A stretch of DNA of 29,000 nt from a candidate division FCPU426 bacterium (lineage in GTDB: Bacteria; Oederibacteriota; JAAXVQ01; JAUVAV01), in NCBI GenBank assembly GCA_030637655.1, contig DAOWGI010000017.1, forward strand, positions 1-29,000. The letters are read 5' to 3'. Both the position numbers and the translations under genes were made by a program. Positions within the stretch are counted from its first letter, which is position 1, and every line of letters starts with the position of its first letter. Positions 5,016-29,000 of the stretch are shown here, piece after piece. The notes under the pieces were generated by a model. The model had not been told where the DNA came from and made no database searches. It saw only the letters and a program-made list of their open reading frames with translations.

Positions 5016-5088
5016 GTAGAAGCGATCCTTGCTTGTGCCCTTATTTTGGGTATGAACGCCCTCGGGCGAATACAAGATTCGCCCCTAC
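5016..5088. repeat. GTAG-family REP doublet with a nested 21-bp insert
   Basis: GTAGAAGCGATCCTTG[CTTGTGCCCTTATTTTGGGTA]TGAACGCCC-TC-GGGCGAATACAAGATTCGCCCCTAC. Confidence 0.8.
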
Positions 5089-5204
5089 AACATTGTTTGG
5101 GGGGGCCCTGAGATAGAATAGTTAATTGAACTGCTTTGTTAGCTGCTAAATAATTCAGTATCCTGTCACCACATCACTTGAATGTCCCTATTTCCGCTAA
5201 ACCG

Positions 5205-5939
5205 CTAAGCCTCTTCTTTTTTATCGGAAAAGTCGTTGCAGTCTTCCAGGGATTGGTCTTCTTTCCGGGCTAATTGGTCGTATTTCTCTTGGCTAAGAAA
5301 ACGGGCATTGAGAAAGAAATTTTTTCGATAGATATAACATTCCGCCGGTTTGTCTTCAGAGCGGTCTAAAAATATTGCCAGGTCCTTATCTTTCCCGATA
5401 AATTCCCGGGATATCATTTGCGGGACATTTTTATGAACAATAAGATTGAGTTCCGTCAAACCGCTGCATAGGCTCATTTTACACAGGTTCCTTTTTTCAA
5501 GTTCACGCAATTCTTTTGCCTGTTCCGAATCCATGGGCATCTCCTTCTGGGTGTAAAGCTTATCTTTTTTATTATGAAATTTAATTGTCTTGACTGTTGT
5601 TGCTTTGATTTTATCGTAAAGTTCCCATACATCAAAGGGTTTTTCTATTAAATCATCCATACCCGCTTGCAGGCAGCGCTGCCTTTCATATTCTGCTCCA
5701 GCAGTCACAGCCAAAATCGGGATATATTTTTCTTTGCGGCGGATGAGTTTGGTTGCTTCGCATCCATCCATGATCGGCATAGCAACATCCATGAGACAAA
5801 GATCATAATTGCCATTATGGATTTTTTCAGCAGCATCCCGGCCGTTGGCCGCCACATCAGCCTCAAAACCCCAGTCAGCTAATAAAAACTGCATCACATC
5901 CCGCAATGGTTTGCGGTCCTCAGCAATAAGAATTTTCAT
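5205..5939 (-). CDS. Response regulator (REC domain) with an unrecognised C-terminal domain
   Basis: MKILIAED...DLCLMDVAMPIMDG...PILAVTA...DDLIEKPF. Start placed at the ATG at 5939; the ORF track uses GTG at 5954. Confidence 0.88.
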   Translation of the reverse strand: MKILIAEDRKPLRDVMQFLLADWGFEADVAANGRDAAEKIHNGNYDLCLMDVAMPIMDGCEATKLIRRKEKYIPILAVTAGAEYERQRCLQAGMDDLIEKPFDVWELYDKIKATTVKTIKFHNKKDKLYTQKEMPMDSEQAKELRELEKRNLCKMSLCSGLTELNLIVHKNVPQMISREFIGKDKDLAIFLDRSEDKPAECYIYRKNFFLNARFLSQEKYDQLARKEDQSLEDCNDFSDKKEEA

Positions 5940-6118
5940 TGTAGCAATTCTCACTTTTTCTCTTGAATATTAACTCTGAGTCGTTTCCCCAGCCATGCTG
6001 AATTGTATGTTTTTTTGTGCAAGTTCGTCCAGTAAAAAAAAGGGTTATATTGCCTGATACTTAAATCCACTAAACCACGGATACACACTGATATACGCAA
6101 ATAATACAAAATTATAAG

Positions 6119-6147
6119 GTGACGTTTTTTACAAAAATCCGTATGAT
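6119..6147 (+). promoter_or_regulatory. Possible sigma70 promoter GTGACG-17bp-TATGAT
   Basis: 17-bp spacing, located 33 bp before the ATG at 6181, which has an AAGGAG RBS. Confidence 0.45.
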
Positions 6148-6180
6148 ATGTAAAAAAAGAGCCGCAAAGGAGAACCCATC

Positions 6181-6489
6181 ATGATCGTTGCCAGCATCAC
6201 GGTTTACGTCAAACCGGAGCATATTGATGATTTCATTCAAGCCACTATTGCCAATCATCAGGATTCGATCCAGGAACCGGGTAATTTGCGCTTTGATGTT
6301 TTGCAATGCCAGGATGATTCCACACGTTTTTTATTATACGAAGCTTATGACTCCGAAAGCTCCGCTGCAGCTCATAAAAAAACCGGCCATTACTTAAAAT
6401 GGCGCGAAACGGTTGAGCCCTGGATGGCCAAACCGCGCACAGGTATTCTGCACACGGTCATTGCTCCTGATAAACGCGAACAATGGTAA
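6181..6489 (+). CDS. Antibiotic biosynthesis monooxygenase (ABM) family protein, LsrG-like
   Basis: VKPEHIDDFI...EPGNLRFDVLQ...FLLYEAY...AHKKTGHYLKWRETVEPWMAKPR; AAGGAG RBS. Confidence 0.9.
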   Translation: MIVASITVYVKPEHIDDFIQATIANHQDSIQEPGNLRFDVLQCQDDSTRFLLYEAYDSESSAAAHKKTGHYLKWRETVEPWMAKPRTGILHTVIAPDKREQW

Positions 6490-7667
6490 TTCCGGACTTT
6501 GTTTTTTCCAGACTCCCAAAAATCATCTTTGGTTCCGGAAAATTCAAGCTGCTGCCTGAAATCATTAAAGAGCAAGCTCAGCATGTGCTGTTAGTCACAG
6601 GCAAGCATTCCTTTCGCCGGACCTGTCAGTGGAATTTACTTATTGAAAATTTAAATGCTCAAGGTACTGTTTGGCAGGATTTCATAATTGCCGCTGAACC
6701 TTCTCCGGCCCTGATCGACGAAGCAGTCCAAGCCAACGCAGATAACAATATCGATTTGCTAGTCGCCATCGGAGGCGGGAGTGTGATTGATGCGGGTAAA
6801 GCAATTTCCGCCATGCTGACGCTCCAAGCTCCGGTGCAAGAGTATCTGGAAGGTGTTGGCAATAAAAAACATCCTGGCAACAAACTTCCCTTTATTGCTG
6901 TGCCCACCACCTCAGGCACTGGGACCGAAGCCACGAAGAATGCCTCGCTCAGCCAGGTGGGCAAAACCGGTTTCAAAAAATCCTTGCGCCATGACAATTT
7001 CGTGCCGGATATCGCTTTGTTGGATCCACAATTATCCGTATCTTGTCCTAAAGAAATTACTGCGAATTGCGGGATGGATGCTTTTGCGCAACTGCTGGAA
7101 TCCTATGTTTCACCCAAAAGCACTCCCTTAACAGACGCGCTGGCAATCAGCGGCTTGGAAGCTATTCGCGATAGTCTGCTCACAGCATATCAGGAAAACG
7201 GAAACATAGAAGCGCGGGCCGGCATGGCGTATGCCGCGCTGTTATCAGGTATCACCTTGGCACACGCCGGTTTAGGTATTGTCCATTCCCTCTCTTCCAC
7301 TATAGGTGGATATTGCACAATTCCGCACGGTGTAATCTGCGGCACTCTGTTGGGTCCGGGTATGAAAATGAATATCGAAAAGCTAAAACAGCAAGGCAAA
7401 GCCAGTTTTTCGTCCTTGCACAAGCACGCCAAAGTAGGCGCCTTACTGCGCAAACAACCGCTTAAGGATGTGTTTCAAGGATGCGAGTGGTTACTACAAA
7501 CCATTGCTGAGTGGAAAACATTTTTGAAATTACCGGGTCTTAAATCATTTGGAATGGAATCCAGCGACGTAGAACACCTTGCCTCAGAAACTCCCATCCG
7601 CAACAATCCGGTTCATTTGGAAACAGAGGACATTCAAAATATTCTGCTGGAAAATTTGAAATCATAG
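6483..7667 (+). CDS. Iron-containing alcohol dehydrogenase
   Basis: GGGSVIDAGKA, VPTTSGTGTEAT, GMDAFAQLLE, GLGIVHSL and IPHG motifs. Overlaps the stop of the upstream gene. Confidence 0.95.
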   Translation: MVIPDFVFSRLPKIIFGSGKFKLLPEIIKEQAQHVLLVTGKHSFRRTCQWNLLIENLNAQGTVWQDFIIAAEPSPALIDEAVQANADNNIDLLVAIGGGSVIDAGKAISAMLTLQAPVQEYLEGVGNKKHPGNKLPFIAVPTTSGTGTEATKNASLSQVGKTGFKKSLRHDNFVPDIALLDPQLSVSCPKEITANCGMDAFAQLLESYVSPKSTPLTDALAISGLEAIRDSLLTAYQENGNIEARAGMAYAALLSGITLAHAGLGIVHSLSSTIGGYCTIPHGVICGTLLGPGMKMNIEKLKQQGKASFSSLHKHAKVGALLRKQPLKDVFQGCEWLLQTIAEWKTFLKLPGLKSFGMESSDVEHLASETPIRNNPVHLETEDIQNILLENLKS

Positions 7668-7763
7668 GCGCGAACCTTTGCTTGTCACGCCGAAGTCGAC
7701 GACGAAGGCGGATGTTCGCCCGTTAAATATTTTTTATAGAGACGCGATTAATCGCGTCTCTAC
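7664..7763. repeat. REP pair between convergent genes, one carrying a nested 32-bp hairpin
   Basis: ATAGGCGCGAACCTTTG[CTTGTCACGCCGAAGTCGACGACGAAGGCGGA]TGTTCGCCC, then the perfect palindrome TAGAGACGCGATTAATCGCGTCTCTA (7737-7762). May double as a bidirectional terminator. Confidence 0.8.
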
Positions 7764-7769
7764 CTGAAT

Positions 7770-8975
7770 TTATTTACGCAATGCTTCGGCGGGTTGCAAT
7801 TTACCCGCATACCGTGCCGGGATCATAGCTGCCACGGCCGGAACAATGATGGATAGCACCATCGCGGAAATCAATGCCACCAGCGATAGCGTTGGATGTA
7901 TTATGTACTCAACCGGGAAACCTTCCATGGAATCTATGAATGCTTCAAAGTTGATGCCTGAGTAGTGAAAGTAAGTAATAATTCCGTAACCAAACAACGC
8001 ACCGGGAATACCTCCGGCTGCCCCAATAATTGCGCCTTCCAAAGTAAAATTCAGGAACAATTCCCGATCAGACATACCAATGGCTTTCAGAGTGCCGATC
8101 TCATGCAAGCGCTCAAAAATGGCCATCATCATGGTATTGATAACCACAAACGAGGCCAGAAACAGAATCAAGGCTTCGATAAATAAATATACATATTTCA
8201 TGGTGGCAAACATTGAATACATGGGTCCGATCTGCTCTTGGTAGCTCATGCTTACCGTACCTTCAGGCAAGACCTTTTTAACAGCAGCATGAACAGCATC
8301 TGTCTGTTTTTCCTGCTCAGTAAACACAAAAAGCTCGGTTGTGCCTGCATAAATTTTCAACAGACGTTTGGCATCCTCCAACTGGACAATGAACGTCTTT
8401 TTATTATACGCGGCCACACCCATATTATAAATTCCGGCTACCGGCAATTTTATCCCATTCAAGCCGCCTTCTGAGGTTTTGGTGGCCAGGAGCAACTTAT
8501 CTCCCACCTGCACTGCCAATTTTTTGGCTAAATCCATACCCATATAAATCCCGCGCGTCTCAACACTTCCCTCGATCATTTTATCTTTAACTTTCAGATT
8601 GGTGTTTAAAACATCCAAACCGAGCCCAAAAGCGCTCACCGTAGTATCATCATTCCCCAGTAAAATACCAAAGCGAATACGTTCTTCGACATGCTGAACA
8701 CCCGGTATTTTTTCAACCTGCTGTTTAATGGCATCGGATTCCAACATCAGGCTGTCCACCGGAATAAAGCGTTCGCGTTCCACAAACTCTTCGGTGGTAA
8801 TCCGCACATTCCCGGTTTGATAAACAATAAAATTCTGCATATACAAATCAATCATGCCATTGATCCAACCCTGGGCCAGACCCACAATCATAGCGCCAAA
8901 AAATATAGCCAAGGCAGTCAAAAAACTGCGGCGCCGGTTGCGCAAAACATTTCGAAAGGCAAATTTGAATAACAT
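7770..8975 (-). CDS. ABC transporter permease, FtsX/MacB/LolE-like
   Basis: AFRNVLRNRRRSFLT, INTMMMAIFERLHEIGTLKAIG and PAEALR. True start is the ATG at 8975 (AAGGAGGT RBS); the ORF-track extension is REP sequence. Confidence 0.93.
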   Translation of the reverse strand: MLFKFAFRNVLRNRRRSFLTALAIFFGAMIVGLAQGWINGMIDLYMQNFIVYQTGNVRITTEEFVERERFIPVDSLMLESDAIKQQVEKIPGVQHVEERIRFGILLGNDDTTVSAFGLGLDVLNTNLKVKDKMIEGSVETRGIYMGMDLAKKLAVQVGDKLLLATKTSEGGLNGIKLPVAGIYNMGVAAYNKKTFIVQLEDAKRLLKIYAGTTELFVFTEQEKQTDAVHAAVKKVLPEGTVSMSYQEQIGPMYSMFATMKYVYLFIEALILFLASFVVINTMMMAIFERLHEIGTLKAIGMSDRELFLNFTLEGAIIGAAGGIPGALFGYGIITYFHYSGINFEAFIDSMEGFPVEYIIHPTLSLVALISAMVLSIIVPAVAAMIPARYAGKLQPAEALRK

Positions 8976-8997
8976 GGTATTGACCTCCTTAAATGCC

Positions 8998-9139
8998 GTA
9001 GGGTCCGCCCCCCGCTTGTGCCCGTTTTCCGGGTATGTCGGCCCGGGCGGACACATAGGTCCGCCCCTACGGTTTGGATATTACACTGTGTTTTGTGCCG
9101 GGCGCTGGCAGATCACGGGCGCACTCAGTGCGCCCCTAC
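8998..9139. repeat. GTAG-family REP cluster with a nested 21-bp insert
   Basis: GTAGGGTCCGCCCCCCG[CTTGTGCCCGTTTTCCGGGTA]TGTCGGCCC-GGGCGGACACATAGGTCCGCCCCTAC (8998-9070) and GGGCGCACTCAGTGCGCCCCTAC ending at 9139. Confidence 0.8.
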
Positions 9140-9149
9140 AAGAATAATA

Positions 9150-10370
9150 TCATTGTACTGTTCTTAAACACTCCATGGCTTCCATTTTGGTCACCTTTTT
9201 GGCCGGGTAATAACTGGCCAGCACACTGGCAACCAGGGTAAAGATCATGGCAATCACATAGGCTTTTACCAGCCAGACGGATTTAATTACACCCATAACC
9301 GGCATGCCAAAATCCTGGTCCCCGAACATGGCATCCATATCAAATCCCACAAAGGCAAAATAGGAATTAAACAAAGTTCCCAGCACCAATCCCATCAGAC
9401 CACCGGCAATGCCGATTAAAGCGCCCTCGATCAGAAACAGATTGCTCACTTCTTGGTCAGTAAAACCCAGTGCTTTCATGGTTCCGATTTCACGCTTTTT
9501 CTCAAACACAGACATCAACATAGTATTGATAATGCCCACAATTGCAATGACCATAATCATCAAGACCAACATGTTTTGGAATTTTTGTTTCATAGCCATC
9601 AAGGCGCGAAAATCTTCGGAGAGTTTCTTCCAACTGTAGATATCACCTTCCACACCACTTAAAGCCGCTTTGATTTTCGGTTCGTATTCTTTCACCTTAA
9701 AAAAATCATCTGTCTTCAAGGCAATTTCCGATACATCCTGAGTATTCATAAGTTGCTGCGCTTCTCCCAGGTTGATAAAGGCCGAGGCTTTATTCACTTG
9801 TGGATTGGCTGACACAATTAATCCAGTAATGAGCACCTCAACTGAGGTATACATACCCTGCTGATTGCGAAAGGTCAGATAGGTCACATCCCCGAGTTGC
9901 AGACCCAAATCATCCGCCAACTCTTTTCCAATTATCGTCCCACCCGGTTCCAATGCTCCGGTCTTTACATATTTCTTTAGATTAAAGACTTTATTGTCAT
10001 CCGGACCAATTCCCACCGCCACCACCGGCATACTATCCACCCCATTATCCACCTCAGCTAAAAACAGTATACGTTCGGTGACATGGGTCACAAACTCCAG
10101 TGTCTTTATTTTTTCCTTAATGACCGCCACATTCTTTATATAGTTCTCTTTATCGTAAGGACGGTCTTCATCGAAATTCACACTTCTTATCTTGTAATGT
10201 CCGGTCTCAAAATCAATCACATTCTTGATTGATTCCTGGTCAAAACCGGACATGAGACAGGCAAACAGAATATAAACACCCACACCAAAGGAGAGAATGA
10301 GAAATGTCAGAATAGTTCTAATTTTAGAACGCAAAATATTTTTAAGAGCGAGTTTGAATAAGTAACTCAT
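9150..10370 (-). CDS. ABC transporter permease, FtsX/MacB/LolE-like
   Basis: ALKNILRSKIRTILT, INTMLMSVFEKKREIGTMKALG and SYYPAKK. ATGA overlap with the ATPase gene. Confidence 0.93.
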   Translation of the reverse strand: MSYLFKLALKNILRSKIRTILTFLILSFGVGVYILFACLMSGFDQESIKNVIDFETGHYKIRSVNFDEDRPYDKENYIKNVAVIKEKIKTLEFVTHVTERILFLAEVDNGVDSMPVVAVGIGPDDNKVFNLKKYVKTGALEPGGTIIGKELADDLGLQLGDVTYLTFRNQQGMYTSVEVLITGLIVSANPQVNKASAFINLGEAQQLMNTQDVSEIALKTDDFFKVKEYEPKIKAALSGVEGDIYSWKKLSEDFRALMAMKQKFQNMLVLMIMVIAIVGIINTMLMSVFEKKREIGTMKALGFTDQEVSNLFLIEGALIGIAGGLMGLVLGTLFNSYFAFVGFDMDAMFGDQDFGMPVMGVIKSVWLVKAYVIAMIFTLVASVLASYYPAKKVTKMEAMECLRTVQ

Positions 10371-11047
10371 GACTCAATCATCCCATCTCTGATTTTAATG
10401 ACACGCTTGGCATGTTTCATGATTAAAGGATCATGCGTAGAAAAAATAAAGGTCGCTTCCTCCTTTTCATTCAATTCCCTCATCAGATCCACAATCGCCT
10501 CTCCATTGACCGAATCCAGATTGGCAGTCGGCTCATCCGCGAAAACGACTTTGGGATTTTTTACCAAGGCCCGGGCTATGGATACGCGTTGCTGTTGACC
10601 ACCGGACAATTCCAAAGGCCTCCGCTTTTCCAATCCTTGCAAGCCGACTTTCACAAGTATTTCCAGAACTTTTTCTTTGATCTGAGCCGGACTAAAACGT
10701 TTCAAAATTTTCAAAGGCATTTCTACATTTTCAAACACTGTAAGTACTGGAATCAAATTGTAGGTCTGGAAAATAAAGCCAAAATTCTCTTTTCGCAAAG
10801 CAGCCAGCTCATTCTTGGTCTTGCCCATCAAATCCGTACTTTCCAGCAAGATTTGACCGCTTTCTGCCCGGTCAATGGTCCCCAAACAATTTAGCAGCGT
10901 AGTCTTGCCGGAACCGGATGGACCGGCAATGGCAGTGAACTCCTGTTTTTCAATGTTTATAAACACATTCTTTAGTGCCTGGAAATCAATTTTACCGGAA
11001 TGATAGGTCTTGTTTAAATTCTTTACTTCGAGAAGCATATGCATCAT
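10367..11047 (-). CDS. ABC transporter ATP-binding protein, LolD/MacB-like
   Basis: GPSGSGKT, LSGGQQQRVSIARAL, ADEPTANLD and STHD. RBS spacing favours the ATG at 11038. Confidence 0.96.
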   Translation of the reverse strand: MMHMLLEVKNLNKTYHSGKIDFQALKNVFINIEKQEFTAIAGPSGSGKTTLLNCLGTIDRAESGQILLESTDLMGKTKNELAALRKENFGFIFQTYNLIPVLTVFENVEMPLKILKRFSPAQIKEKVLEILVKVGLQGLEKRRPLELSGGQQQRVSIARALVKNPKVVFADEPTANLDSVNGEAIVDLMRELNEKEEATFIFSTHDPLIMKHAKRVIKIRDGMIES

Positions 11048-11081
11048 CTCCTTTGGGGGTTATACATATATTTCAACTGCA

Positions 11082-11108
11082 CGGGCGAATACATGGATTC
11101 GCCCCTAC
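11082..11108 (-). repeat. GTAG-family REP
   Basis: GGGCGAATACATGGATTCGCCCCTAC-type hairpin between genes, similar to 5064-5088. Confidence 0.75.
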
Positions 11109-11127
11109 GGCATCACATATAAAACGT

Positions 11128-12306
11128 TTATAATTTCGCCTCAGCGCGCAACAAAACAATATATTTCCCAAGTACCTCCCGGGAATACTGCGTGTCACCC
11201 ACACCGGTGGGAATCATCCATTGCAGACTCAGGTTCAACCCATCGGACAAAACCCAAGCCAGGGTATGCACGATCAGACTGCTGTAATCCTCAAGATTTA
11301 CAAACGCGTCCAATTGGAACCGGAAAAACTCATGCGGTGCATGCACCAGGTTGCCATACAAATAATAGGTATCCGTAAATCCCGCATAGTCCAATTGCGC
11401 AAAAGCGTTTAACGTATTGGTATTGGCATCAGTAGGGGCGACCGGCCGGTCGCCCCTACCTTCATTGCCATTATAATACACCTGCGTCCCAAGCAACCAC
11501 TCCCCCTCAAAAAAGCTGTAATCAAGTCCGAGTGTGGCTTCGGAATAGGAGTCCTGGGCCTGATCATTAAAATGATACGCATACGATCCTTGCACGCCCA
11601 GTTCCAGATCACCCTTAAAATAAACTCCGGCAATATTATCATCGCGCCCTGCCCGATTGGCAACCATACCCACATCAAATCCGGATAGATTGGTAAAAAT
11701 ACCAGTGCCCGCAGATACTTCCGAATCCTGCGCTTCCGGACTGACATAGACTCGCAAACCGGATAAATCCCCTAAAGGCAGATCATAGGAAAGCGCGACC
11801 AGACCGTCTTTGGTATAACTCAAATCCGAGACATTTATACTGGAATCAATCTCAAAGGGATTAAACACACCCAAATTGCCAAAACTCACATACGTCTTGC
11901 CCAAAGTAAAATCCCCGGAATCCGTATACCAGCGCACAAAGACGCGTAATACTTTGGCCAGAAAATAATCAGCATCCAGGGATAAGTCAGTGGGCGATTC
12001 ACTTGTGCCCGTCTTTTGGGTATGAATCGCCCCTACAGCATCACCGGTGTATAAATAGAAACGCACATCACTATAAAATTTCCAATCCTCCGCTTTTCTC
12101 TGCAGAATCAGTTTATTTTCTACAATATTATTAAACTGGGGCTCTCCCTCAGTGCCTATTAATACAGCATCATTGCGGATCGCGCCGGACAGATCAATTT
12201 TTGCCTGAGACATTACAGGCAACCATAATAATAGAATAAGCAGAGACGCGAATATAAGCAGAGACGCGATTAATCGCGTCTCTGCAGGTAATAACCAACG
12301 CAGCAT
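11128..12306 (-). CDS. Hypothetical secreted protein, probable outer-membrane beta-barrel
   Basis: Start reassigned to the ATG at 12306 (AGGAGGTG RBS). Signal-like N-terminus, alternating aromatic strands, FTLGK...SFG...FNP motif and C-terminal LRAEAKL. Lies between LolA-like and ABC genes and contains three REP palindromes. Confidence 0.75.
   Translation of the reverse strand: MLRWLLPAETRLIASLLIFASLLILLLWLPVMSQAKIDLSGAIRNDAVLIGTEGEPQFNNIVENKLILQRKAEDWKFYSDVRFYLYTGDAVGAIHTQKTGTSESPTDLSLDADYFLAKVLRVFVRWYTDSGDFTLGKTYVSFGNLGVFNPFEIDSSINVSDLSYTKDGLVALSYDLPLGDLSGLRVYVSPEAQDSEVSAGTGIFTNLSGFDVGMVANRAGRDDNIAGVYFKGDLELGVQGSYAYHFNDQAQDSYSEATLGLDYSFFEGEWLLGTQVYYNGNEGRGDRPVAPTDANTNTLNAFAQLDYAGFTDTYYLYGNLVHAPHEFFRFQLDAFVNLEDYSSLIVHTLAWVLSDGLNLSLQWMIPTGVGDTQYSREVLGKYIVLLRAEAKL
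11432..11459. repeat. Perfect 28-bp REP palindrome inside a CDS
   Basis: GTAGGGGCGACCGGCCGGTCGCCCCTAC, read through as GRGDRPVAPT. Confidence 0.9.
11990..12036. repeat. REP with a nested 21-bp insert inside a CDS
   Basis: GTGGGCGATTCA[CTTGTGCCCGTCTTTTGGGTA]TGAATCGCCCCTAC, read through as VGAIHTQKTGTSESPT. Confidence 0.85.
12258..12285. repeat. Perfect 28-bp palindrome in the signal-peptide coding region
   Basis: GCAGAGACGCGATTAATCGCGTCTCTGC, the same core as 7737-7762. One arm is duplicated 18 bp away (12237-12251). Confidence 0.85.
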
Positions 12307-12332
12307 GTCACCACACCTCCTGAAATAATGCT

Positions 12333-12447
12333 GTAGGGGCGATTCTTGCTTGTGCCCGTATTTTGGGTATGATCGCCCGCCATTTGGGTATGTCCGCCCG
12401 GGCCGACATACCCAAATGACGAACACAAGCGGGGCACGTGCCCCTAC
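12333..12447. repeat. REP doublet with two full nested 21-bp inserts and one partial
   Basis: GTAGGGGCGATTCTTG[12349-12369]TGATCGCCC...GGGCCGACA[12409-12429, reverse]CGGGGCACGTGCCCCTAC. Confidence 0.85.
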
Positions 12448-12451
12448 GAGA

Positions 12452-13195
12452 TTAACGGCGCAAATATCCCTTGGTAAACACCTTGGCCGGAACCTTGACA
12501 TCAAACTCAATCTCAGTAAAGGTTATCACAGTCTGAGAATTCTTTTTACGCATATCCTTGATAGTAATGCTAGTAGGCACCTGACGTATTCCGATCTTTT
12601 TTACATCTGTTTGACTCATTTTTTTCAGCAAGCGTCCGCCGCGCGCATAGAGCTCTATTTCCAGGGGAATAAACCAGTTTTTATCAACCACAATCACTTG
12701 TTTTTCATAAGTCACATCCGGTTTTTTAGCGATCAGTTCCACCACATAACAATCCCGGTCTCCCACTTTTTTATCTTCCAACAATTTAGCATCATATTGT
12801 TCATCAATGCTGTCATTTTCCAGCATGTCCTCATAGGAAATGTCCGAACCCATCATTCCCTGCCTAAGCATGTGACCGGATATTTTCATAATGTCATCAG
12901 CATCCGGAAAGTAAATCCAAAGCTCGTCATCCATTTTCAGATACTTCACACCTTTATCTTCCGGATTGGTAAATTCCATAAAAGATTTCATACCCTCTTT
13001 TTTACCATACCCGTAAAATTGTTTGGTTAAAGTGCGTTTGCCTTTGGTGATTACCATGGTGGCTGTGAATTTCTCAGTCACAAAGACTTGGTTCTTATCT
13101 ACTTTCTCAATAATACTTTTCGCAGTCTCTGAAGCCTGACTCATGGCCGGCAACAAGTAGAGCAATAAACTTAAGGTGATAACGTGTTTCAGCAT
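12452..13195 (-). CDS. Outer-membrane lipoprotein-sorting protein (LolA-like)
   Basis: Signal peptide, then FTNPEDKGVKYLK, LWIYFP and MMGSDISYED, typical of the LolA_like family; GGAGG RBS. Confidence 0.9.
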   Translation of the reverse strand: MLKHVITLSLLLYLLPAMSQASETAKSIIEKVDKNQVFVTEKFTATMVITKGKRTLTKQFYGYGKKEGMKSFMEFTNPEDKGVKYLKMDDELWIYFPDADDIMKISGHMLRQGMMGSDISYEDMLENDSIDEQYDAKLLEDKKVGDRDCYVVELIAKKPDVTYEKQVIVVDKNWFIPLEIELYARGGRLLKKMSQTDVKKIGIRQVPTSITIKDMRKKNSQTVITFTEIEFDVKVPAKVFTKGYLRR

Positions 13196-13215
13196 TTGAT
13201 TCCTCCGTTCATAAT

Positions 13216-13242
13216 GTAGGGGCGAGGTTACCTCGCCCCTAC
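13216..13242. repeat. GTAG-family REP abutting the receptor stop codon
   Basis: GTAGGGGCGAGG-TTA-CCTCGCCCCTAC. Confidence 0.85.
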
Positions 13243-15500
13243 TAAAATTCCCAGCGCATACCGCCGATAATCAAACGCGGAAGTTGGTTAATCTCCCGTT
13301 TTTCAGAATAATCGGTTTTGTATTGATAGGAATTTACATTCTGTACATTAAACAAATTCGAGACCTGAAGATAGGTATATCCACTTTCCAATCCAAAAAG
13401 CGGCATAGTCAATTTGATATCCGTTGACATGTAAGGAGGATACCGCTCACTGTTGTATTCCCCGAAGACAGGAATATATTCATTAATCGCCGGCTGGTAT
13501 ACAGCGCCTACGACAGGAGTATACAATTGGCCGGAGGCAAACTTCTGGGTTAATGCCAGTTTCCACTTCTCAGTAAAATTGTAATTGGCAATTAGGTTCA
13601 TAGTATGCGGACGCTCTGTTGAAGGCGCGTACCATTCCTGATACGGTGTATTGCTTTCCGGCATACCTAATGTTGCAGGATCTGTCCGTTGGTCAATGCG
13701 ACGCCGCGTCTTGAGCCGGCTATAGGTCAGCCAGCCATCCCACTTACCGCCAAATTCCTTTTTAATCATTACATCCAGACCACAGGCATAACCTCGTTCA
13801 TGATTGGTATAATTGATATCCGGATCATCATCCGACACAATGAGATTGCGATAATCTTTATAATAGCCATCCACCTGCACGGTAAAATCATCAGCAATAT
13901 TTATTTTGCCGCCCAAAATATAGTGAATGGCTTCCTCTGCCAATAAATCCGAGTTGCCAAGCTCATTATCAATTTGTTGAGCACTCAGTGGATACTGGCT
14001 ATAGATTCCCGAAGCCAAGGTGACTTCCCACCCTTCCTGGAGCTTCACTTTAAACATCAGGCGCGGATTGACCAGCCACTGGCTATTCGCAGTATAGTAT
14101 TGTACATTCATACTTGGGTTGGCAAACAATAAATCTTTAATAATTGTCATCTCATCCTGAAGAAACAGTCCGGCAAAATTAACCCAATCCATTTCCAGTT
14201 TGGTTTCTATTGATTCTTCATACCTGGTATTATTAGCCGTGGGGAGCGATATGGTTCTTTTCAAGTTGGCCTCACCAATAGCCGGAAAATAATACAGCCC
14301 GGTTCTCAATTTGTGTCCCTTGCCCAATTCCCATTGCCAGACATGGCGCAACTGCATAATCATTTGTTCCCGGTCCAGGTTGAACGGACTAAAGGAATCA
14401 TCAAAACTGAATTCACCCTGATTGTAATACACACCCAACAAGGTCAATACCGACAAATTCTCTGATATACGATAGTCTGAAGATACGCTCAGATTGACGT
14501 TCAGATTCGAATACATCAATTCCATTTCCTCGACATTGGCAGAACCATATCCTTCCTCCGGTTTGACAGACATTTGCATGCCCTCAAAGGAGTAAATGGA
14601 ATTGATGGCAATCATATTATTATCAAACGGCAGGTTGAGCTTGAATTGGCCATCGTAAAAAAACGGAAACACCAGGTTTTCATCCTGAAAAAAGAGACCA
14701 ATGATTAAATCATAATGCGTTCGTCGCAATCCCAGCATAAACGAACCGGCTTCCGGTCCCCAGAACGGCCCTTCCACAAAAACATCCAAGGTGGTGACCG
14801 AGAGGTCAATAAAACCTTGGTGTTGCTCCGGATTACCTGCCTTGTTTTTGACTTTAAGAATAGCGGACATGGCTTGCGGCCATTCTGCTGAAAATCCACC
14901 GGAATAAAAATCAATTGATTCCACCAGGTTGGGATTAAAGATGGATACGGCTCCGCCCCACAGATAAGGATGCATAATAACCATATCATCTAAAATGGCC
15001 AACACTTCATTCGGATCCCCGCCCCGAACAAAAAGCAGACTGGAAAATTCATGGGTTGAGGTAACCCCGGGCAACAACTGCACGACTTTCATCACATCCG
15101 GGAATAAGCTTACGGTAGTTTGCTTAATCACTTCCCGGCTTAGTTTCTGTTTACTGATTTTAATTAATTCTTCATCTTTTTCCGCCGTCACCACAAATTG
15201 ATCCATTTCATAAACATCGTATTCGTACAGTTCAATAGTATTTCCCGCTTTTTGCAACACCAGGCTTTTTTCCTGGAATCCGGCCAGTTTAATTCTTACC
15301 TTTGGATTTTCTGTGTCCAACCGAAAACAACCGTCAACATCGGTTAGCGCTTGCCGCCCCTGAGAATCTAGTATAACAGCATTCGCAAGCGGGTCCTGCG
15401 TGGTTCCATTACATACAGTGCCGGTATACGTTTCAGCCCATAGCAGCGCAGGAGCCAAACAGAAAAAAAAGAACATATATATAATAGTTAAAAACCGCAA
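13242..15500 (-). CDS. TonB-dependent receptor with N-terminal carboxypeptidase-regulatory-like domain
   Basis: TGTV...PLANAVI...TDVDGCFRL, plug motifs LLPGVT...VRGG and IDFYSGGFSAEW, LQVSNLFN and terminal MRWEF. Start reassigned to TTG at 15500 after GGAGG; the ORF-track extension is REP sequence. Confidence 0.9.
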   Translation of the reverse strand: MRFLTIIYMFFFFCLAPALLWAETYTGTVCNGTTQDPLANAVILDSQGRQALTDVDGCFRLDTENPKVRIKLAGFQEKSLVLQKAGNTIELYEYDVYEMDQFVVTAEKDEELIKISKQKLSREVIKQTTVSLFPDVMKVVQLLPGVTSTHEFSSLLFVRGGDPNEVLAILDDMVIMHPYLWGGAVSIFNPNLVESIDFYSGGFSAEWPQAMSAILKVKNKAGNPEQHQGFIDLSVTTLDVFVEGPFWGPEAGSFMLGLRRTHYDLIIGLFFQDENLVFPFFYDGQFKLNLPFDNNMIAINSIYSFEGMQMSVKPEEGYGSANVEEMELMYSNLNVNLSVSSDYRISENLSVLTLLGVYYNQGEFSFDDSFSPFNLDREQMIMQLRHVWQWELGKGHKLRTGLYYFPAIGEANLKRTISLPTANNTRYEESIETKLEMDWVNFAGLFLQDEMTIIKDLLFANPSMNVQYYTANSQWLVNPRLMFKVKLQEGWEVTLASGIYSQYPLSAQQIDNELGNSDLLAEEAIHYILGGKINIADDFTVQVDGYYKDYRNLIVSDDDPDINYTNHERGYACGLDVMIKKEFGGKWDGWLTYSRLKTRRRIDQRTDPATLGMPESNTPYQEWYAPSTERPHTMNLIANYNFTEKWKLALTQKFASGQLYTPVVGAVYQPAINEYIPVFGEYNSERYPPYMSTDIKLTMPLFGLESGYTYLQVSNLFNVQNVNSYQYKTDYSEKREINQLPRLIIGGMRWEF

Positions 15501-15517
15501 ACAGAACCTCCCCTCAT

Positions 15518-15580
15518 GTAGGGAACGGTCGCGACCGTTCCCTACCAATGGGATTCCCTTCGGTCGCGACCGTTCCCTAC
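15518..15580 (-). repeat. REP palindrome plus one 35-bp unit, inverted relative to the 18271-18403 array
   Basis: Minus strand reads GTAGGGAACGGTCGCGACCGAAGGGAATCCCATTG-GTAGGGAACGGTCGCGACCGTTCCCTAC. It supplies the TAG stop of the ApbE gene. Confidence 0.9.
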
Positions 15581-18270: not shown

Positions 18271-18403
18271 GTAGGGAATAGTCGCGACCGAAGGAAATCC
18301 CATTCGTAGGGAACGGTCGCAACCGAAGGAAATCCCATTCGTAGGGAACGGTCGCGACCGAAGGAAATCCCATTCGTAGGGAACGGTCGCGACCGTTCCC
18401 TAC
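18271..18403 (+). repeat. Tandem array of three 35-bp REP-derived units plus a full 28-bp palindrome
   Basis: Unit GTAGGGAACGGTCGCGACCGAAGGAAATCCCATTC at 18271, 18306 and 18341 (0-2 mismatches), then GTAGGGAACGGTCGCGACCGTTCCCTAC at 18376. Confidence 0.95.
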
Positions 18404-23929: not shown

Positions 23930-26900
23930 TTACGCCGCGCCGGCAAATATCTTGATAGCCCTGCGCATAAACTCCTGGGCGTTTTTAGGCTGATAGTTGT
24001 GCTGCCGGACCATCTCACGCAAAGCGCCCAGTGAACCCCGAAATCCCAGCAGAGCAAACGGAATGCTTATATCTTGCTGTTTAATCCCCTTATCTTCAAG
24101 CATAGCGATAAGCGGAGCCAATTCACTATTGACTGGAGCAGCATAATTCTTTTCCACCACCATAATAGGATCCAACAATTCCGAGAGATAGGTTAAGGCC
24201 ATAAGATTCAGCATATTTTCCTCAAGCAGATCCAAATTATCCTTAGTATAATTTTCCCGGAAAAGTTTGTAATAATTGGTTACCAAGGCACTCAAATTCC
24301 GTGCAAACTTCGCCTGCGCCCGTACCGCGCTTTTTTCATCCTTGGCCGCGAACACTGCCATAAGCATGCGCTGCAGATAAGTATTATCCGGATTTTCCAG
24401 TACCTGAATGAGCAGCGCCTTTGCCCCTACAGGCATTAACCGATTAAGTTTAGCCATTATCTGATTAAAATAAGCTGAGGCGTTTTCTCTGGCAATGCTT
24501 TGATGAACTCGTGCACCGCCAAAAATCAACCGGAATTTCTGCCAAGTATTAAATCCGGCAGTACGATCAGCAGGCTTAGCCAAATCACGTCCTCCGAAGC
24601 GATGAATAGGAATATTACCGGCATTAACTTCCGCAATCACAGCTTTCCGGGATTGACCTTCTTCGGCTGTTACAGTGCCAACCACTGATAAATAATAAGT
24701 GGTCTCTCCATCTTCATCTTTAAAAGTAAATGGGGTAAATTCCCGAGTTGAAGCAATGGCATAAACCGGTTTGCCAAAATCATTTTTACCCAAATACCTG
24801 GACTGGGTGGATTCTGTTCGCGTGTCTTGAGGTTTTAAGATTTGCAATAAAGATGCAACTTCTTCCGGTTTATCCATGACGATCTTTTCACCACATTTAA
24901 TATCTTTTGCCGCCATTTTCTTTAAGACAGCCAACAGACCCGGGTTTATATTAATTTCTTCTTGTTTAACTTTTTCCAACAAAGCCCTGGCCATAACAGG
25001 CAAAGCTGCTATGGATATGGTTTTAACCTCATCATTATTGTACGCCAAGTCAAAACCCGGCAGAGTCAAAGCTGCTGACAAGGCCTGCTCTGCCATGGCT
25101 TTTATTTTTCCACTAACCTCACCACCTGTCTCCTGAGCCAGTAATTTCGCCAAAGAACCAGCCTGCGATTTAGCAGCGCTGTTTAAGACACTATTGTCAG
25201 GATCAAAAAACAAATGCAGATATTTTATAAACGCTTTTAATCTATTGGACGTCTTTTTTACTTGCTGTTTTGTTTCAGGATTAAATTGGCTTTCCAATGC
25301 CGCTACATCCGCTAAAGGTATAATAGGTGAACATAATTTCAGAAAATTATTCCATGCCACAGTTAAATCCTTGCCTGCTTTTGGTATAACACTGATTTCA
25401 AGGGGTTTGACATCTTCTGTCATCATTTCCACCATACTTTCTACCAGCGCGTCCTTGCGGTTTATGCCTAATGAAATCATAAGCAAGCGTAAGTTGCGCA
25501 GTTGAGATGCGCTCCCAAGCGCCAGCCGCAGCCAGAGTCGCATAATTGCACGACCCAGGGAGGGCATTATACCTGCGTTATCATTCAAAACCATTTTCCA
25601 GGCCCAAGCAGGCATACTTAGCACAACTTCCTCTTTCTTCTCAAAAAACTCGGCATTAATAGGGGCATCTGTTTCTTCTTCTTTTGGTCTGAACGTCACA
25701 CTTAAAAATAAGGATTTCGCAAAAATTACATTTTTTCTCAAATTAAAATTAGGGCCAAATAAAATATTTCGACGCTTTGATTCCTCTGTCGCAATTCCTG
25801 CCGCAGGTCGATCTGCTTGATAGCGGCTAAACTCCTGGCCGATTAGACTTTTATAAGGGGATTCATTGGGTTCGTGTAAATACTGCTCCTCCAATTCAGC
25901 CAGGTTAGCGGCATCTTTATCATCTTTCCGCTTTCTTAATGGTTTGTTCTCTTCCCCATGCCATTCCCGGCTAATTATTACTGCGATGATGTAGGCCATA
26001 GCCGGCCATATGGGCGCAACTAATCCGGAACTTGCTGCGATCATACCAATAACCATAACAATAACAGGAAATGATAATGAAGTGATAATTGCTTTTTTGG
26101 TGGCTGCTCTGATTTCCTCAGGTGTTTGCTTACCCTCATCAATGCCAACAATACCAAGGAATTTATGGCCCAAATACATCAGACCGTATAAGAAACCGAT
26201 TGGAACAAATAGGTAAACACTCATATTCAGGTCCGGAAACCACTGTGCAAGCACACTGGTGAACATTACATACATAACATTCAAAACCCACGTTTCGACC
26301 CTTCCGGTCCCTACTGCATCTAAGCCTAATTTGTCTGCCATCCATTTGATGGCACCGGGGGGATTTTCATCTGCAACATCTGCTATGGATTCTTCTTTGT
26401 TTTCTACCAGTTCAGCCTTAATAGATCGAACAATCGGTTCATCGGAGATGATCCAGTTCCTAAATAGATTGCCGTATTTGCTCAGAAGCGTCAGGAATTC
26501 ATTTCCAAATAATACGTTCTTTCCAAGTATTTGCGAAGCATCCGGCGTCTCTTCCTTTACGCCTGGTAAATCCGGTACAGTTAACTGCCCCAATAAGTTG
26601 CCAAATAGCTTTATGAACACACCTAATATATATGCAGGTAATACGAAGGCGACTTTTTCCGCTGTGGTCAGTAGATGAAATGTTGTGAAAAATTCATCTT
26701 TGTAAATATAATTAATAAAAGCTATTCCTGCGACCAGTAAACGCGGAGCAATTTCCCATAAATATTTAGCTGTTTTGACTAAATCAGCTGCCATACGCTT
26801 TGCGTCTATATCCAAAGCTTTATACAAATCTTCCCTTTTCATTATAATATTCATTAAATAATAAGGTTCACCTAAAATTACCAGTATCCTGACCGATGGC

Positions 26901-29000
26901 AGAGCCATAGCTCCTAAAGTATCTTTTATATATTTTTTAAGTAGTTCTAAATCCAACACCATTTTTTTTTGAGAATTAATAAGTAAATTGAAAATATAAT
27001 TTCTGAAGTTTACAATTCTATCAGTCAAACTCCTGTTCACCACCCCATGCACCCCGGCAAAAACTCCCACACCCAAAGCTATCAGCAATGGCATAGCCAA
27101 CTGTAAATGCAAGCCGGATACTAACGCGCTATAAAGCAGCGCGCTGGCTGCTGCGATAAACAAAGCTATTGCTACATTTATTGGCCGCGTAGCATATTTC
27201 TGCGTCCATTTTTTTATAGGATTATCATCTTCCAGGAAGGGATTGAATATCCGCAGCCAGACATCCAGCATATGCAGCAATACAAAGGCCGCTAAAATCG
27301 CGTTCAGGAAAGGATTGTCTAATAAAGGCGCAGCCAGACCAGCCGGCAGCAGGTTGATTAAACCATTGACCGCAGCCATCACATCCGCCCCGCTCAGGAA
27401 ATAACCGGCCGCCACGGCTGCCATGGCTGCCATGGCTGCCGCTGCCTCCGCTACAATCACTACCCACCCTTTATATTCAATTCCAAACCACTCCACCAGG
27501 CTCTGCAACCAACCTATCCTGCCGCCGGGGGGAGTTTGAGAATCTTTCGTGTCTGTCTCCATTGTCTGTAAAGCACTGGATCCCGTGCCTGGTACCTTTT
27601 GCACCGCCGGCGGAATTAAGCTTTTCGCAATTTCCGAAGATAAAAGTTTGGTGATATGAAAAATAACGACATCCGGAGCAGTAGGTTTTATTGCAGGGAG
27701 AAATTCAATCCAATTGCTTCTAGTACAAAAATCATGTAATTGATCGATGCTTATTTCTTCCAGGTTACTGGGCAGGTTTTGTATGATGCGTTCAAGTGCT
27801 TTCGTGCTGACCGCTTGATCACCCGAGGATAGAGCTTTGGCTAAATTGGTCGGCAAGTCACCCCGGATTTCAACCTCCCCTTCGTGTAAAGAGGCGATCA
27901 AGGCCAGAAATTTTAAAAATTTGGCAAAACGCTTATGCGTTTTATCTTTTTGAGCCAAGGCGCTTAACACAAAAGCGATTCCGCCGGTGAAGTCGGTTTT
28001 TCTTCGCAGAATTTCTTTCAATTCCTCACTTCGCTCACCAAAAGCTGTCTGTACGTCTATAACAATTTCACGCGTCTGGGCTTCGGTTAAATTGGGGCCA
28101 TTATAGCGTTTGGCGAATTTTCCGATTCTGAAGGCAAATAAATCTGCATCCGCTTTTTTAGATTCCTGCTCAAAATTCATGATAATCGGCAACACTTTGG
28201 ATAAAGCCGACGGATTCCAACCTGCCGTATCCAAGACCGTGTGGATCTTCAACCAGGGAAGCAATTCATGATTGATTCGCCTGGTAAAGGTCGAATACCG
28301 AATCTCGCCCCGGCCCAAAAATTCAATCATGGCCATATGCTCCCGGATTAGCACTGACGCCAAGCTGATGATGGCTGGCTCGACCCCGTACTCCTCCATA
28401 ATTCGCTCAGCGATTCGGGCTCCTTTGAGAGCATGATTGCCTTCATCGCCTTCAGAATAACCAATATCATGCAGGCGTAAAGCCCAACGCAATGCTATCC
28501 ACTCATGAGAAAACCGTTGCGGTTTGAGTCTGCTAAGCGCTTCCAAATGCTCTCGGAATTGGGCTTTCTCTTCACCTTCGGGCAAAACGCGCAGGAAATA
28601 TTCAAAATCACTAGGCTCATTAAACAAAGCCTCCTCAGCCTTAACCGCGTCTAAAATATGCTGGGCGCGGGACGGATCAATGGCCTTGATCTTTTTAAAC
28701 TCCGGCAGGTTGGTGATGTCCAACAGAGTCAGAGGCGACACTTGCTCCAAAACTCCGGTGTCTGGCGCCTTTTGCCCCGGTGTACTCAATTTATCTATGC
28801 CTGGCACCGATTTCGCTGAAAATACATTCCCCTGTGAGGTATCTACTTTTTCAAACATCCCAATAATATGTGCCCCTTGTCTCAATCTTCCATTTACTCT
28901 TAACCCTAGATTATATTCTTCTATCAAACGAAAACCATATGATTCCACTAATCGTTTCCAGCCTTCTTCCCATGGATAGTACTGTCCTGTCCACGGCATA
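23930..29000 (-). CDS. Giant multidomain membrane protein (at least 1689 aa, probably 5'-truncated) containing an HD domain
   Basis: Open frame to the window edge. WALRLHDIGY...NHALKGARIA...LIREH...D is HD-like; three multi-TM bundles follow; ends in KIFAGAA. Confidence 0.85.
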   Translation of the reverse strand, partial: MPWTGQYYPWEEGWKRLVESYGFRLIEEYNLGLRVNGRLRQGAHIIGMFEKVDTSQGNVFSAKSVPGIDKLSTPGQKAPDTGVLEQVSPLTLLDITNLPEFKKIKAIDPSRAQHILDAVKAEEALFNEPSDFEYFLRVLPEGEEKAQFREHLEALSRLKPQRFSHEWIALRWALRLHDIGYSEGDEGNHALKGARIAERIMEEYGVEPAIISLASVLIREHMAMIEFLGRGEIRYSTFTRRINHELLPWLKIHTVLDTAGWNPSALSKVLPIIMNFEQESKKADADLFAFRIGKFAKRYNGPNLTEAQTREIVIDVQTAFGERSEELKEILRRKTDFTGGIAFVLSALAQKDKTHKRFAKFLKFLALIASLHEGEVEIRGDLPTNLAKALSSGDQAVSTKALERIIQNLPSNLEEISIDQLHDFCTRSNWIEFLPAIKPTAPDVVIFHITKLLSSEIAKSLIPPAVQKVPGTGSSALQTMETDTKDSQTPPGGRIGWLQSLVEWFGIEYKGWVVIVAEAAAAMAAMAAVAAGYFLSGADVMAAVNGLINLLPAGLAAPLLDNPFLNAILAAFVLLHMLDVWLRIFNPFLEDDNPIKKWTQKYATRPINVAIALFIAAASALLYSALVSGLHLQLAMPLLIALGVGVFAGVHGVVNRSLTDRIVNFRNYIFNLLINSQKKMVLDLELLKKYIKDTLGAMALPSVRILVILGEPYYLMNIIMKREDLYKALDIDAKRMAADLVKTAKYLWEIAPRLLVAGIAFINYIYKDEFFTTFHLLTTAEKVAFVLPAYILGVFIKLFGNLLGQLTVPDLPGVKEETPDASQILGKNVLFGNEFLTLLSKYGNLFRNWIISDEPIVRSIKAELVENKEESIADVADENPPGAIKWMADKLGLDAVGTGRVETWVLNVMYVMFTSVLAQWFPDLNMSVYLFVPIGFLYGLMYLGHKFLGIVGIDEGKQTPEEIRAATKKAIITSLSFPVIVMVIGMIAASSGLVAPIWPAMAYIIAVIISREWHGEENKPLRKRKDDKDAANLAELEEQYLHEPNESPYKSLIGQEFSRYQADRPAAGIATEESKRRNILFGPNFNLRKNVIFAKSLFLSVTFRPKEEETDAPINAEFFEKKEEVVLSMPAWAWKMVLNDNAGIMPSLGRAIMRLWLRLALGSASQLRNLRLLMISLGINRKDALVESMVEMMTEDVKPLEISVIPKAGKDLTVAWNNFLKLCSPIIPLADVAALESQFNPETKQQVKKTSNRLKAFIKYLHLFFDPDNSVLNSAAKSQAGSLAKLLAQETGGEVSGKIKAMAEQALSAALTLPGFDLAYNNDEVKTISIAALPVMARALLEKVKQEEININPGLLAVLKKMAAKDIKCGEKIVMDKPEEVASLLQILKPQDTRTESTQSRYLGKNDFGKPVYAIASTREFTPFTFKDEDGETTYYLSVVGTVTAEEGQSRKAVIAEVNAGNIPIHRFGGRDLAKPADRTAGFNTWQKFRLIFGGARVHQSIARENASAYFNQIMAKLNRLMPVGAKALLIQVLENPDNTYLQRMLMAVFAAKDEKSAVRAQAKFARNLSALVTNYYKLFRENYTKDNLDLLEENMLNLMALTYLSELLDPIMVVEKNYAAPVNSELAPLIAMLEDKGIKQQDISIPFALLGFRGSLGALREMVRQHNYQPKNAQEFMRRAIKIFAGAA

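What the first reader, a model, noticed from the sequence alone, without database searches (positions are those of the whole stretch)
5032..12429. A 21-bp mini-hairpin repeatedly nested inside REP loops, always immediately 5' of TG
Seen: CTTGTGCCC-N7-GGGTA (21 bp) at 5032-5052, 9015-9035, 12002-12022 and 12349-12369, plus a variant on the minus strand at 12409-12429 (CTTGTGTTCGTCATTTGGGTA) and a partial copy at ~12375-12390. Every full copy sits in the loop of a GTAG-REP of a different sequence and is followed by TG. Removing it restores a clean hairpin, e.g. GGGCGATTCA|TGAATCGCCCCTAC. There is no consistent target duplication, and the loop varies while ends and length are fixed. Inference: an ultra-small mobile unit that targets REP hairpins, compatible with single-strand HUH (Y1/RAYT- or IS91-like) chemistry. 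Its 21-bp length preserves reading frames.
Basis: partly seen in the sequence, partly recalled or inferred. Interest (0 to 1): 0.75.

Follow-up and report, generated by a model that had tools for sequence, protein, structure and literature searches.

The report
Tiny mobile hairpin nesting inside repeats
A 21-letter piece of DNA behaves as a mobile unit of its own: it is inserted cleanly, without duplicating its target, into other repeats, into genes and into itself in bacteria of several phyla, which puts it among the smallest known mobile DNAs, but the enzyme that moves it was not found.

Summary
In detail: four exact copies and one variant, none expected by chance. The genome has 62 copies; removing exactly 21 nt restores a sequence found elsewhere for 49 of 62, with no target duplication. 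Filled and empty orthologous sites exist in other bacteria (MFS, ssb, gltB), and there are head-to-tail and self-nested arrays, so it is mobile as a unit. The weak rule is Y-R|N-N-N-G (G at +4 in 35 of 56; 7 of 9 held-out families), which the unit's own ends and self-insertions also obey. It is one of a set of 18-34-nt inserts with a CYTG foot and a T-A-closed stem. RAYT's C|T or C|A cut does not fit; no HUH, RT or nuclease gene is tied to it. Closest known kind: cyanobacterial small dispersed repeats. This scan noted the same unit before on another contig (e1-7259441).

The parts
5016..5061 (+). degenerate GTAG-REP host, interrupted by the unit
5032..5052 (+). 21-nt unit, copy 1 (loop variant TTATTTT)
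5064..5088 (-). uninterrupted partner GTAG-REP of the same REP pair
7681..7712 (+).
   Evidence: eight related 31-36-nt units elsewhere in the genome
8998..9044 (+). degenerate GTAG-REP host
9015..9035 (+). 21-nt unit, copy 2 (loop GTTTTCC)
9045..9070 (-). partner GTAG-REP
11128..12306 (-). 392-aa gene (no Pfam match) in a LolA-like/MacB-FtsX ABC operon; carries REP plus unit in frame
   Evidence: 7 of 7 aligned orthologues lack 10-11 residues at this spot
11988..12036 (.). double-foot-type GTAG-REP inside the gene, split at its centre by the unit
12002..12022 (+). 21-nt unit, copy 3, in frame (7 codons)
12333..12378 (+). GTAG-REP host; clean 7-bp hairpin once the unit is removed
12349..12369 (+). 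21-nt unit, copy 4
12376..12390 (+). 5'-truncated unit (3' 15 nt), its CCC shared with the end of the preceding REP; deletion through microhomology is inferred
   Evidence: sequence printed
12409..12429 (-). 21-nt variant copy with a broken stem (3 mismatches)
12400..12447 (-). degenerate GTAG-REP host of the variant; same composite as 8998-9053

Best explanation
The unit is a non-autonomous mobile micro-element: a 4-nt foot (C-N-N-G, mostly CTTG or CCTG) followed by a 6-bp stem closed by T5-A21 around a 5-nt loop. SHOWN: it inserts as an exact unit with no duplication or loss, into several unrelated repeat families, into coding DNA, head-to-tail with itself and into its own loop; in this genome about 9-13 insertions were then multiplied as passengers of their host repeats. 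SHOWN (statistical): target and both element ends share a weak motif, Y-R|N-N-N-G. INFERRED: it is cut out of, and joined into, single-stranded DNA by one cut-and-rejoin (transesterifying, HUH-like) enzyme acting in trans that cuts 5' of the N-N-N-G tetranucleotide, the polarity of IS91; a 21-nt single-stranded circle, or its multimers, would explain tandem arrays. INFERRED: repeats are favoured because they are often single-stranded or nicked by their own nucleases (RAYT, GxxExxY, Ssn), and REP loops relax the need for G at +4. The enzyme is not identified.
For: Boundary scan peaks only at the 21-nt register (22 of 62 exact, 49 of 62 within one mismatch; off-diagonal 0-5). Orthologous empty/filled sites: MFS gene with 5 x 21 nt in L152, empty in L218, L223, L230; an ssb tail site filled in L223, L218, L117 and empty in L152, L230; a 7-residue gap exactly at the unit in GltB against PDB 7mfm. 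15 tandem arrays among 212 sites; 4 self-insertions in the loop at CGCTTT|TTGG. G at +4 in 35 of 56 families (p 1.8e-9 uncorrected, 13 positions tested), pyrimidine at -2 in 44 of 56; prediction written then met in 7 of 9 and 7 of 9 new families. In this genome positions 1 and 4 are fixed in 61 of 62 copies while 2 and 3 vary. Loop-closing pair occurs as G.T, G-C and C-G across the 21- and 19-nt forms; the top strand folds better than the bottom (z -4.3 against -2.2). Patchy, bursty spread: 51 copies in 1 of 151 genomes of one class.
Against: No enzyme found: no recurrent transposase or nuclease neighbour within 1.5 kb in 223 loci (output partly cut); no Y1 or Y2 gene bounded by the unit or its halves; Y2 hits in 5 of 8 genomes with the 21-mer and 3 of 7 without. 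The motif is weak (21 of 56 families lack G at +4). The idea that the foot pairs with all four downstream bases failed its covariation test (p 0.35; only C1 with G+4 is significant). No circle or excision product was observed; contigs of four runs gave no clear empty allele for this window. Site families are clustered by flank similarity and may not be fully independent; about 15-20 of the 107 metagenome loci are expected to be chance matches (my estimate), which is why a stricter subset was used.
Confidence: 0.5

Rival explanations
1. The units are minimal recognition hairpins of small GIY-YIG nucleases (the Ssn clade or its tRNA-linked relatives). The nuclease nicks at the foot, the hairpin is released and host ligase or repair inserts it at other nicks.
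For: The core of the 24-nt sibling flanks GIY-YIG genes in L172 and L173; a 30-nt sibling-like unit lies in the leader of L474, and L461/L465 leaders have CCTG-TACC...TGGTA arms. CYYG-footed stems occur in 14 of 32 such leaders against a random-window mean of 5.6, max 10. SsnA cuts single-stranded DNA just upstream of a footed hairpin (PMC11893778 section 8).
Against: CYYG ranks 7th of 576 foot classes in those leaders, not first, and the random windows are mostly coding. No GIY-YIG gene is flanked by the 21-mer itself in 5 genomes searched (one copy lies about 700 nt from L172, inside a REP). The unit does not match the SRM pattern (0 of 5 window copies). The units may simply have inserted into the leaders. 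GIY-YIG enzymes hydrolyse and are not known to join strands (established knowledge).
Confidence: 0.25
2. One reading: a RAYT (TnpA-REP) moves it and targets REP loops at TG.
For: 26 of 62 copies in this genome sit in GTAG-REP loops, mostly one base before the 3' arm; foot-plus-hairpin anatomy is REP-like; the first 10 nt of the CCTG form equal the loop and 3' arm of a subclass 2.4 REP in Quentin et al. Table S1; other Y1 classes use other feet (CnGA).
Against: Characterised RAYTs cut C|T or C|A; neither junction has this on either strand. More than half of the copies, and most site families elsewhere, are not in REPs. The four Y1 hits in this genome are not flanked by the unit.
Confidence: 0.1
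3. A reverse transcriptase makes the unit from RNA (telomerase- or retron-like) and it is captured at breaks.
For: Tandem arrays and 14-nt/7-nt partial runs look like template slippage; one copy lies just downstream of a DGR-type RT (L450).
Against: The 14+7 runs are explained exactly by nested self-insertion. Ends are exact, with no 5' truncation class. No RT match in 2 of 5 positive genomes (G008, G044; incomplete assemblies); the RTs seen are DGR or group II types.
Confidence: 0.07
4. It is not mobile by itself; all copies descend from one composite repeat spread by its host.
For: Within this genome the sequence variant tracks the host family (same-variant pairs 0.37 against a null of 0.12, max 0.20), so most copies did spread as passengers.
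Against: 9-13 different host sites in this genome alone, 56-76 overall, insertions in unique coding DNA with empty orthologues, five variants shared between host families.
Confidence: 0.03

Closest known systems
Small dispersed repeats (SDR1-8) of Nostocaceae (Elhai et al. 2008, Genome Res 18:1484; paper not held; known here from citing passages and from recall)
   Same: [quoted passage not shown] Two cyanobacterial genomes carry 18-20-nt units with the same inner anatomy, CTTG...CCC-loop-GGGTA, many inside heptamer repeats (50 and 42 pattern matches against 6 and 10 in controls).
   Different: The HIP1 insert recovered from a Nostoc plasmid has other ends. The cyanobacterial look-alikes carry an extra TAG 5' of the CTTG and have G at +4 in 0 of 24 loci, so their junction rule differs. 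SDRs were reported only from Nostocaceae among HIP1-rich cyanobacteria (PMC5861425); this unit occurs in at least three other phyla and a Mu-like phage. Which SDR number the look-alike bears could not be checked.
GTAG-REPs and RAYT/TnpA-REP, subclass 2.4 (Quentin 2018 PMC6006769; Corneloup 2021 PMC8266576)
   Same: Tetranucleotide foot 5' of a hairpin; in-frame insertion in genes; these REPs are one of its hosts.
   Different: Foot CYYG, not GT[AG]G; ends flush with foot and stem; junctions not C|T or C|A; no flanked Y1 gene.
IS91 family ends (PMC13181058)
   Same: No target duplication; tetranucleotide CTTG/CTCG next to a subterminal hairpin at terIS; insertion next to a tetranucleotide target.
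   Different: IS91 targets keep T at position 2 and are nearly all CTTG or GTTC; here only G at position 4 is enriched. No separate oriIS; 21 nt in all; no linked Y2 transposase.
NTS/SRM hairpins of Ssn GIY-YIG nucleases (Chenal 2025, PMC11893778)
   Same: Short footed single-strand hairpins in many copies; SRM-type repeats are hosts in L225, L258, L266; sibling cores flank small GIY-YIG genes.
   Different: The 21-mer fails the SRM pattern and flanks no GIY-YIG gene found.

Membership tests
SDR-like very small mobile elements | 20-30 nt unit with fixed ends, dispersed in many copies | tested here: met
   62 copies, reversed-genome control 1; boundary scan
SDR-like very small mobile elements | precise insertion, empty orthologous sites | tested here: met
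SDR-like very small mobile elements | nested in other repeats and in itself (recalled from the abstract of Elhai 2008) | tested here: met
a named SDR family (SDR1-8) | sequence identity with a published consensus | tested here: inconclusive
   not SDR5 as recovered; other consensus sequences not available; look-alike with different ends in cyanobacteria
REP moved by RAYT | GT[AG]G foot | tested here: not met
   foot C-N-N-G
REP moved by RAYT | cleavage at C|T or C|A | tested here: not met
   junctions N|C and A|N on top, N|T and G|N on bottom
REP moved by RAYT | copies flank a Y1 gene | tested here: not met
   32 Y1 loci from 15 genomes scanned for the unit or halves, none bounded by it; not every hit was fetched
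IS91 non-autonomous derivative | target CTTG/GTTC with T at position 2 | tested here: not met
   T at +2 in 20 of 56 families
IS91 non-autonomous derivative | parent element with the same ends | tested here: not met
   10 Y2 loci scanned
IS110-type insertion in REPs | shared core dinucleotide at both junctions | tested here: not met
   unique register, no shared core; core rule recalled
Ssn-related motif (SRM) | match to the degenerate SRM pattern | tested here: not met
   0 of 5 window copies
HUH-mobilised element | single-stranded circle and 5'-phosphotyrosine intermediate | not testable with these tools
   needs biochemistry

The most novel reading that the evidence does not exclude
A cross-phylum superfamily of 18-34-nt 'CYTG-footed' hairpins is a class of minimal transposons moved as single-stranded units by an undescribed cut-and-join enzyme with a Y-R|N-N-N-G rule, which accepts unrelated hairpin cores as cargo and parasitises the repeats of several different nuclease systems. 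This would supply the missing mechanism for SDR-type elements and a ligation-free way to write short DNA tags without target duplication.
Probability: 0.3. Interest if true: 0.85.

Novelty: new variant of a known kind. Interest (0 to 1): 0.62.

Why it matters
How 20-nt repeats move has been open since SDRs were described. Here the ends, the empty sites, tandem and nested forms and a shared junction motif are defined well enough to build substrates and screen candidate enzymes. The unit also adds seven-residue blocks to conserved proteins (GltB, SSB, an MFS carrier), a source of protein loop variation, and it extends this kind of element far beyond cyanobacteria.

Tried and rejected
Empty alleles in four sequencing runs: inconclusive; one related contig spans 11202-12230 with 36 missing letters, 18 of them listed near another REP, the rest not shown, which does not add up to a clean 21-nt gap. 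Homologue search of the host protein timed out; orthologues came instead. Apical-loop preference across all genomes: not significant. Four-base pairing between foot and right flank: covariation not seen. Neighbour clustering for a mobiliser: only host repeats, ssb/rfbB/MFS orthologues and common genes. Y1, Y2, RT, GIY-YIG and GxxExxY searches: no gene bounded by the 21-mer. Viral relatives of the L172 nuclease: none confirmed. Nostoc plasmid NC_010631: no match to the shared-end or 24-mer patterns. The genome-contig scan used a pattern short enough that most of its 112 loci are probably chance; only multi-copy genomes and repeat contexts were used. One of 63 genome hits (C65, inside a long ORF, two mismatches) was dropped as chance. 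The label of G042 (Acidobacteriota) is doubtful: its ssb locus is close to L117, labelled Gammaproteobacteria, so it is not counted as a further phylum. A likeness to the I-TevI CNNNG motif (search listing only) is off by one base and was not pursued.
Full report
Observation. All five are followed by TG. Removal leaves a clean hairpin at 12002 and 12349 only; 9015 and 12409 are two copies of one composite with the same 18-nt right flank. The window also holds a 32-nt sibling at 7681-7712 in the same loop position of a REP. The copy at 12002 lies, with its REP, in frame in a 392-aa gene; 7 of 7 aligned orthologues lack 10-11 residues there.

Genome census. The 3.28-Mb genome has 29 exact matches (control 0) and 63 within two mismatches of C-N-N-GTGCCCG-N-N-TTTY-GGGTA (reversed control 1); one was dropped as chance, leaving 62. 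Sliding both boundaries by up to three bases, only the 21-nt register restores sequences found elsewhere: 22 of 62 exactly, 49 of 62 within one mismatch; off-diagonal cells reach at most 5, so there is no target duplication or shared core. 43 of 62 junctions fall in exact repeats against 17.5% of non-coding positions, and the other 19 are visibly degenerate repeat copies. By my assignment of the families, 26 copies are in GTAG-REP loops, 35 in non-palindromic 9-mer repeats and 1 at a REP end; those 9-mer repeats flank both GxxExxY (PF13366) genes of the genome. The 62 copies form 9-13 host-site families, and the sequence variant tracks the family (0.37 against 0.12): few insertions, then spread with the host.

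Elsewhere. 3 of 10 genomes of the same family carry the 21-mer. An Anaerolineae genome has 52 copies, a Caldilineaceae genome 7, a Sulfuricellaceae genome 6 and G042 13, while 150 other genomes of the first one's class have none. The metagenome scan gave 107 loci, some of them chance; a Mu-like phage contig has two copies in genes. Hosts include other GTAG-REPs, SRM-type hairpins and unique DNA. Runs holding this window are cold-seep metagenomes, the three best from one study.

Mobility as a unit. In an MFS gene L152 has five head-to-tail units in frame where L218, L223 and L230 are empty; one site in the SSB tail is filled in L223, L218 and L117 and empty in L152 and L230. In GltB of G041 the unit gives a seven-residue insertion with an exact gap in PDB 7mfm. 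15 of 212 unique sites are tandem arrays of 2-5 units, and runs of 14-mers followed by 7-mers resolve into insertions of the unit into its own loop (4 events).

Junction rule. In 56 high-confidence site families (174 sites; self-insertions and likely chance matches left out) G is at +4 in 35 (p 1.8e-9 uncorrected), a pyrimidine at -2 in 44, a purine at -1 in 38, T at +1 in 27, TG in 11. The prediction was written down and held in 7 of 9 and 7 of 9 new families. The element ends in T-A and begins with C-N-N-G, with positions 1 and 4 fixed in 61 of 62 copies, so both of its ends, the head-to-tail junction and the loop site fit the same motif. REP loops supply many of the exceptions. A general preference for hairpin loops was not seen, nor four-base pairing of the foot with the flank.

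A superfamily. The same sites hold other inserts with a CYTG foot and a stem from T5 to the terminal A: 18-19 nt (4 in this genome; 17 in G008), 24 nt, 30 nt (13 copies) and 31-36 nt (9 found). The loop-closing pair is G.T, G-C or C-G across the 21- and 19-nt forms. Length is therefore not held to a multiple of three.

Mechanism. Exact ends, no duplication, multimers and one motif at every junction point to a single-strand cut-and-rejoin reaction 5' of a tetranucleotide, the polarity known from IS91 (passages of PMC13181058); this is inference. RAYTs cut C|T or C|A (passages of PMC8266576), which does not fit. No Y1, Y2, RT or nuclease gene is bounded by the unit. The one positive lead is that sibling cores and CYYG-footed stems recur in leaders of small, mostly tRNA-linked GIY-YIG genes, weakened by the control.

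Relation to what is known. It works like the small dispersed repeats of Nostocaceae. That paper is not held; I saw only citing passages (PMC5861425, PMC4390886, PMC3116915, PMC2884548) and recall its abstract. The HIP1 insert on a Nostoc plasmid has other ends, but two cyanobacterial genomes carry look-alikes with the same inner anatomy and a different junction. Six motifs of the family were in none of the papers searched; descriptive searches found nothing relevant; supplements of PMC3733652 (4 files) and PMC11893778 (12 of 14 files) had no match and PMC6006769 one partial match inside a REP. Subscription journals and bioRxiv supplements were not searchable. Read: PMC11893778 abstract and sections 8, 10, 17; PMC6006769 passages and section 27; PMC3733652 passages.

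Verdict. A real, independently mobile micro-element, broader in hosts and taxa than first read, a new variant of the SDR kind. The scan had already noted it on another contig of this genome (e1-7259441, seen after I had formed the SDR reading); new here are the orthologous empty sites, the self-nesting, the junction rule and the sibling set. Interest 0.62.

Noticed in passing
window 11432-11459: A second, uninterrupted double-foot REP lies in frame in the same 392-aa gene; a related strain's contig lacks about 18 letters around it.
   Followed up: partly
window 15518-15580 and 18271-18403: Arrays of a GTAG REP alternating with a fixed spacer at a 35-nt period; this REP is the commonest in the genome (98 counts of its first 20 nt).
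   Followed up: no
G000:C2:1648-1675 and C15 near 21300: A 28-nt insert with different ends sits directly behind a 21-nt unit in the 9-mer repeat at two loci, suggesting serial insertion at one hot spot.
   Followed up: partly
L175 (G002:C8) and L456/L489 (G008:C85): Broken tRNA copies upstream of small GIY-YIG genes are interrupted by 20-nt CTTG-footed perfect hairpins closed by C-G rather than T-A.
   Followed up: partly
L170 (IMG/VR contig): Mu-like transposable phage with two in-frame copies of the unit in adjacent small genes; a possible vehicle between hosts.
   Followed up: partly
L450, L446, L447, L452, L453 (G041): Five DGR-type reverse transcriptase loci, most with Avd-like and FGE-sulfatase-like neighbours by inspection; one unit lies between RT and avd in L450.
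   Followed up: no
L506-L535 (G288, G297): Cyanobacterial 18-20-nt look-alikes preceded by TAG; in heptamer and other repeats they seem to replace one A rather than insert cleanly.
   Followed up: partly
window 23930-28999: A 1689-aa ORF with an HD-like N-terminal part and long hydrophobic stretches, of the giant-protein type frequent in this genome (ORFs of 4500-8500 aa).
   Followed up: no
window 7770-15548: LolA-like, two MacB/FtsX permeases, ABC ATPase and a 392-aa protein without Pfam match that has orthologues in 10 of 10 genomes of the family.
   Followed up: partly
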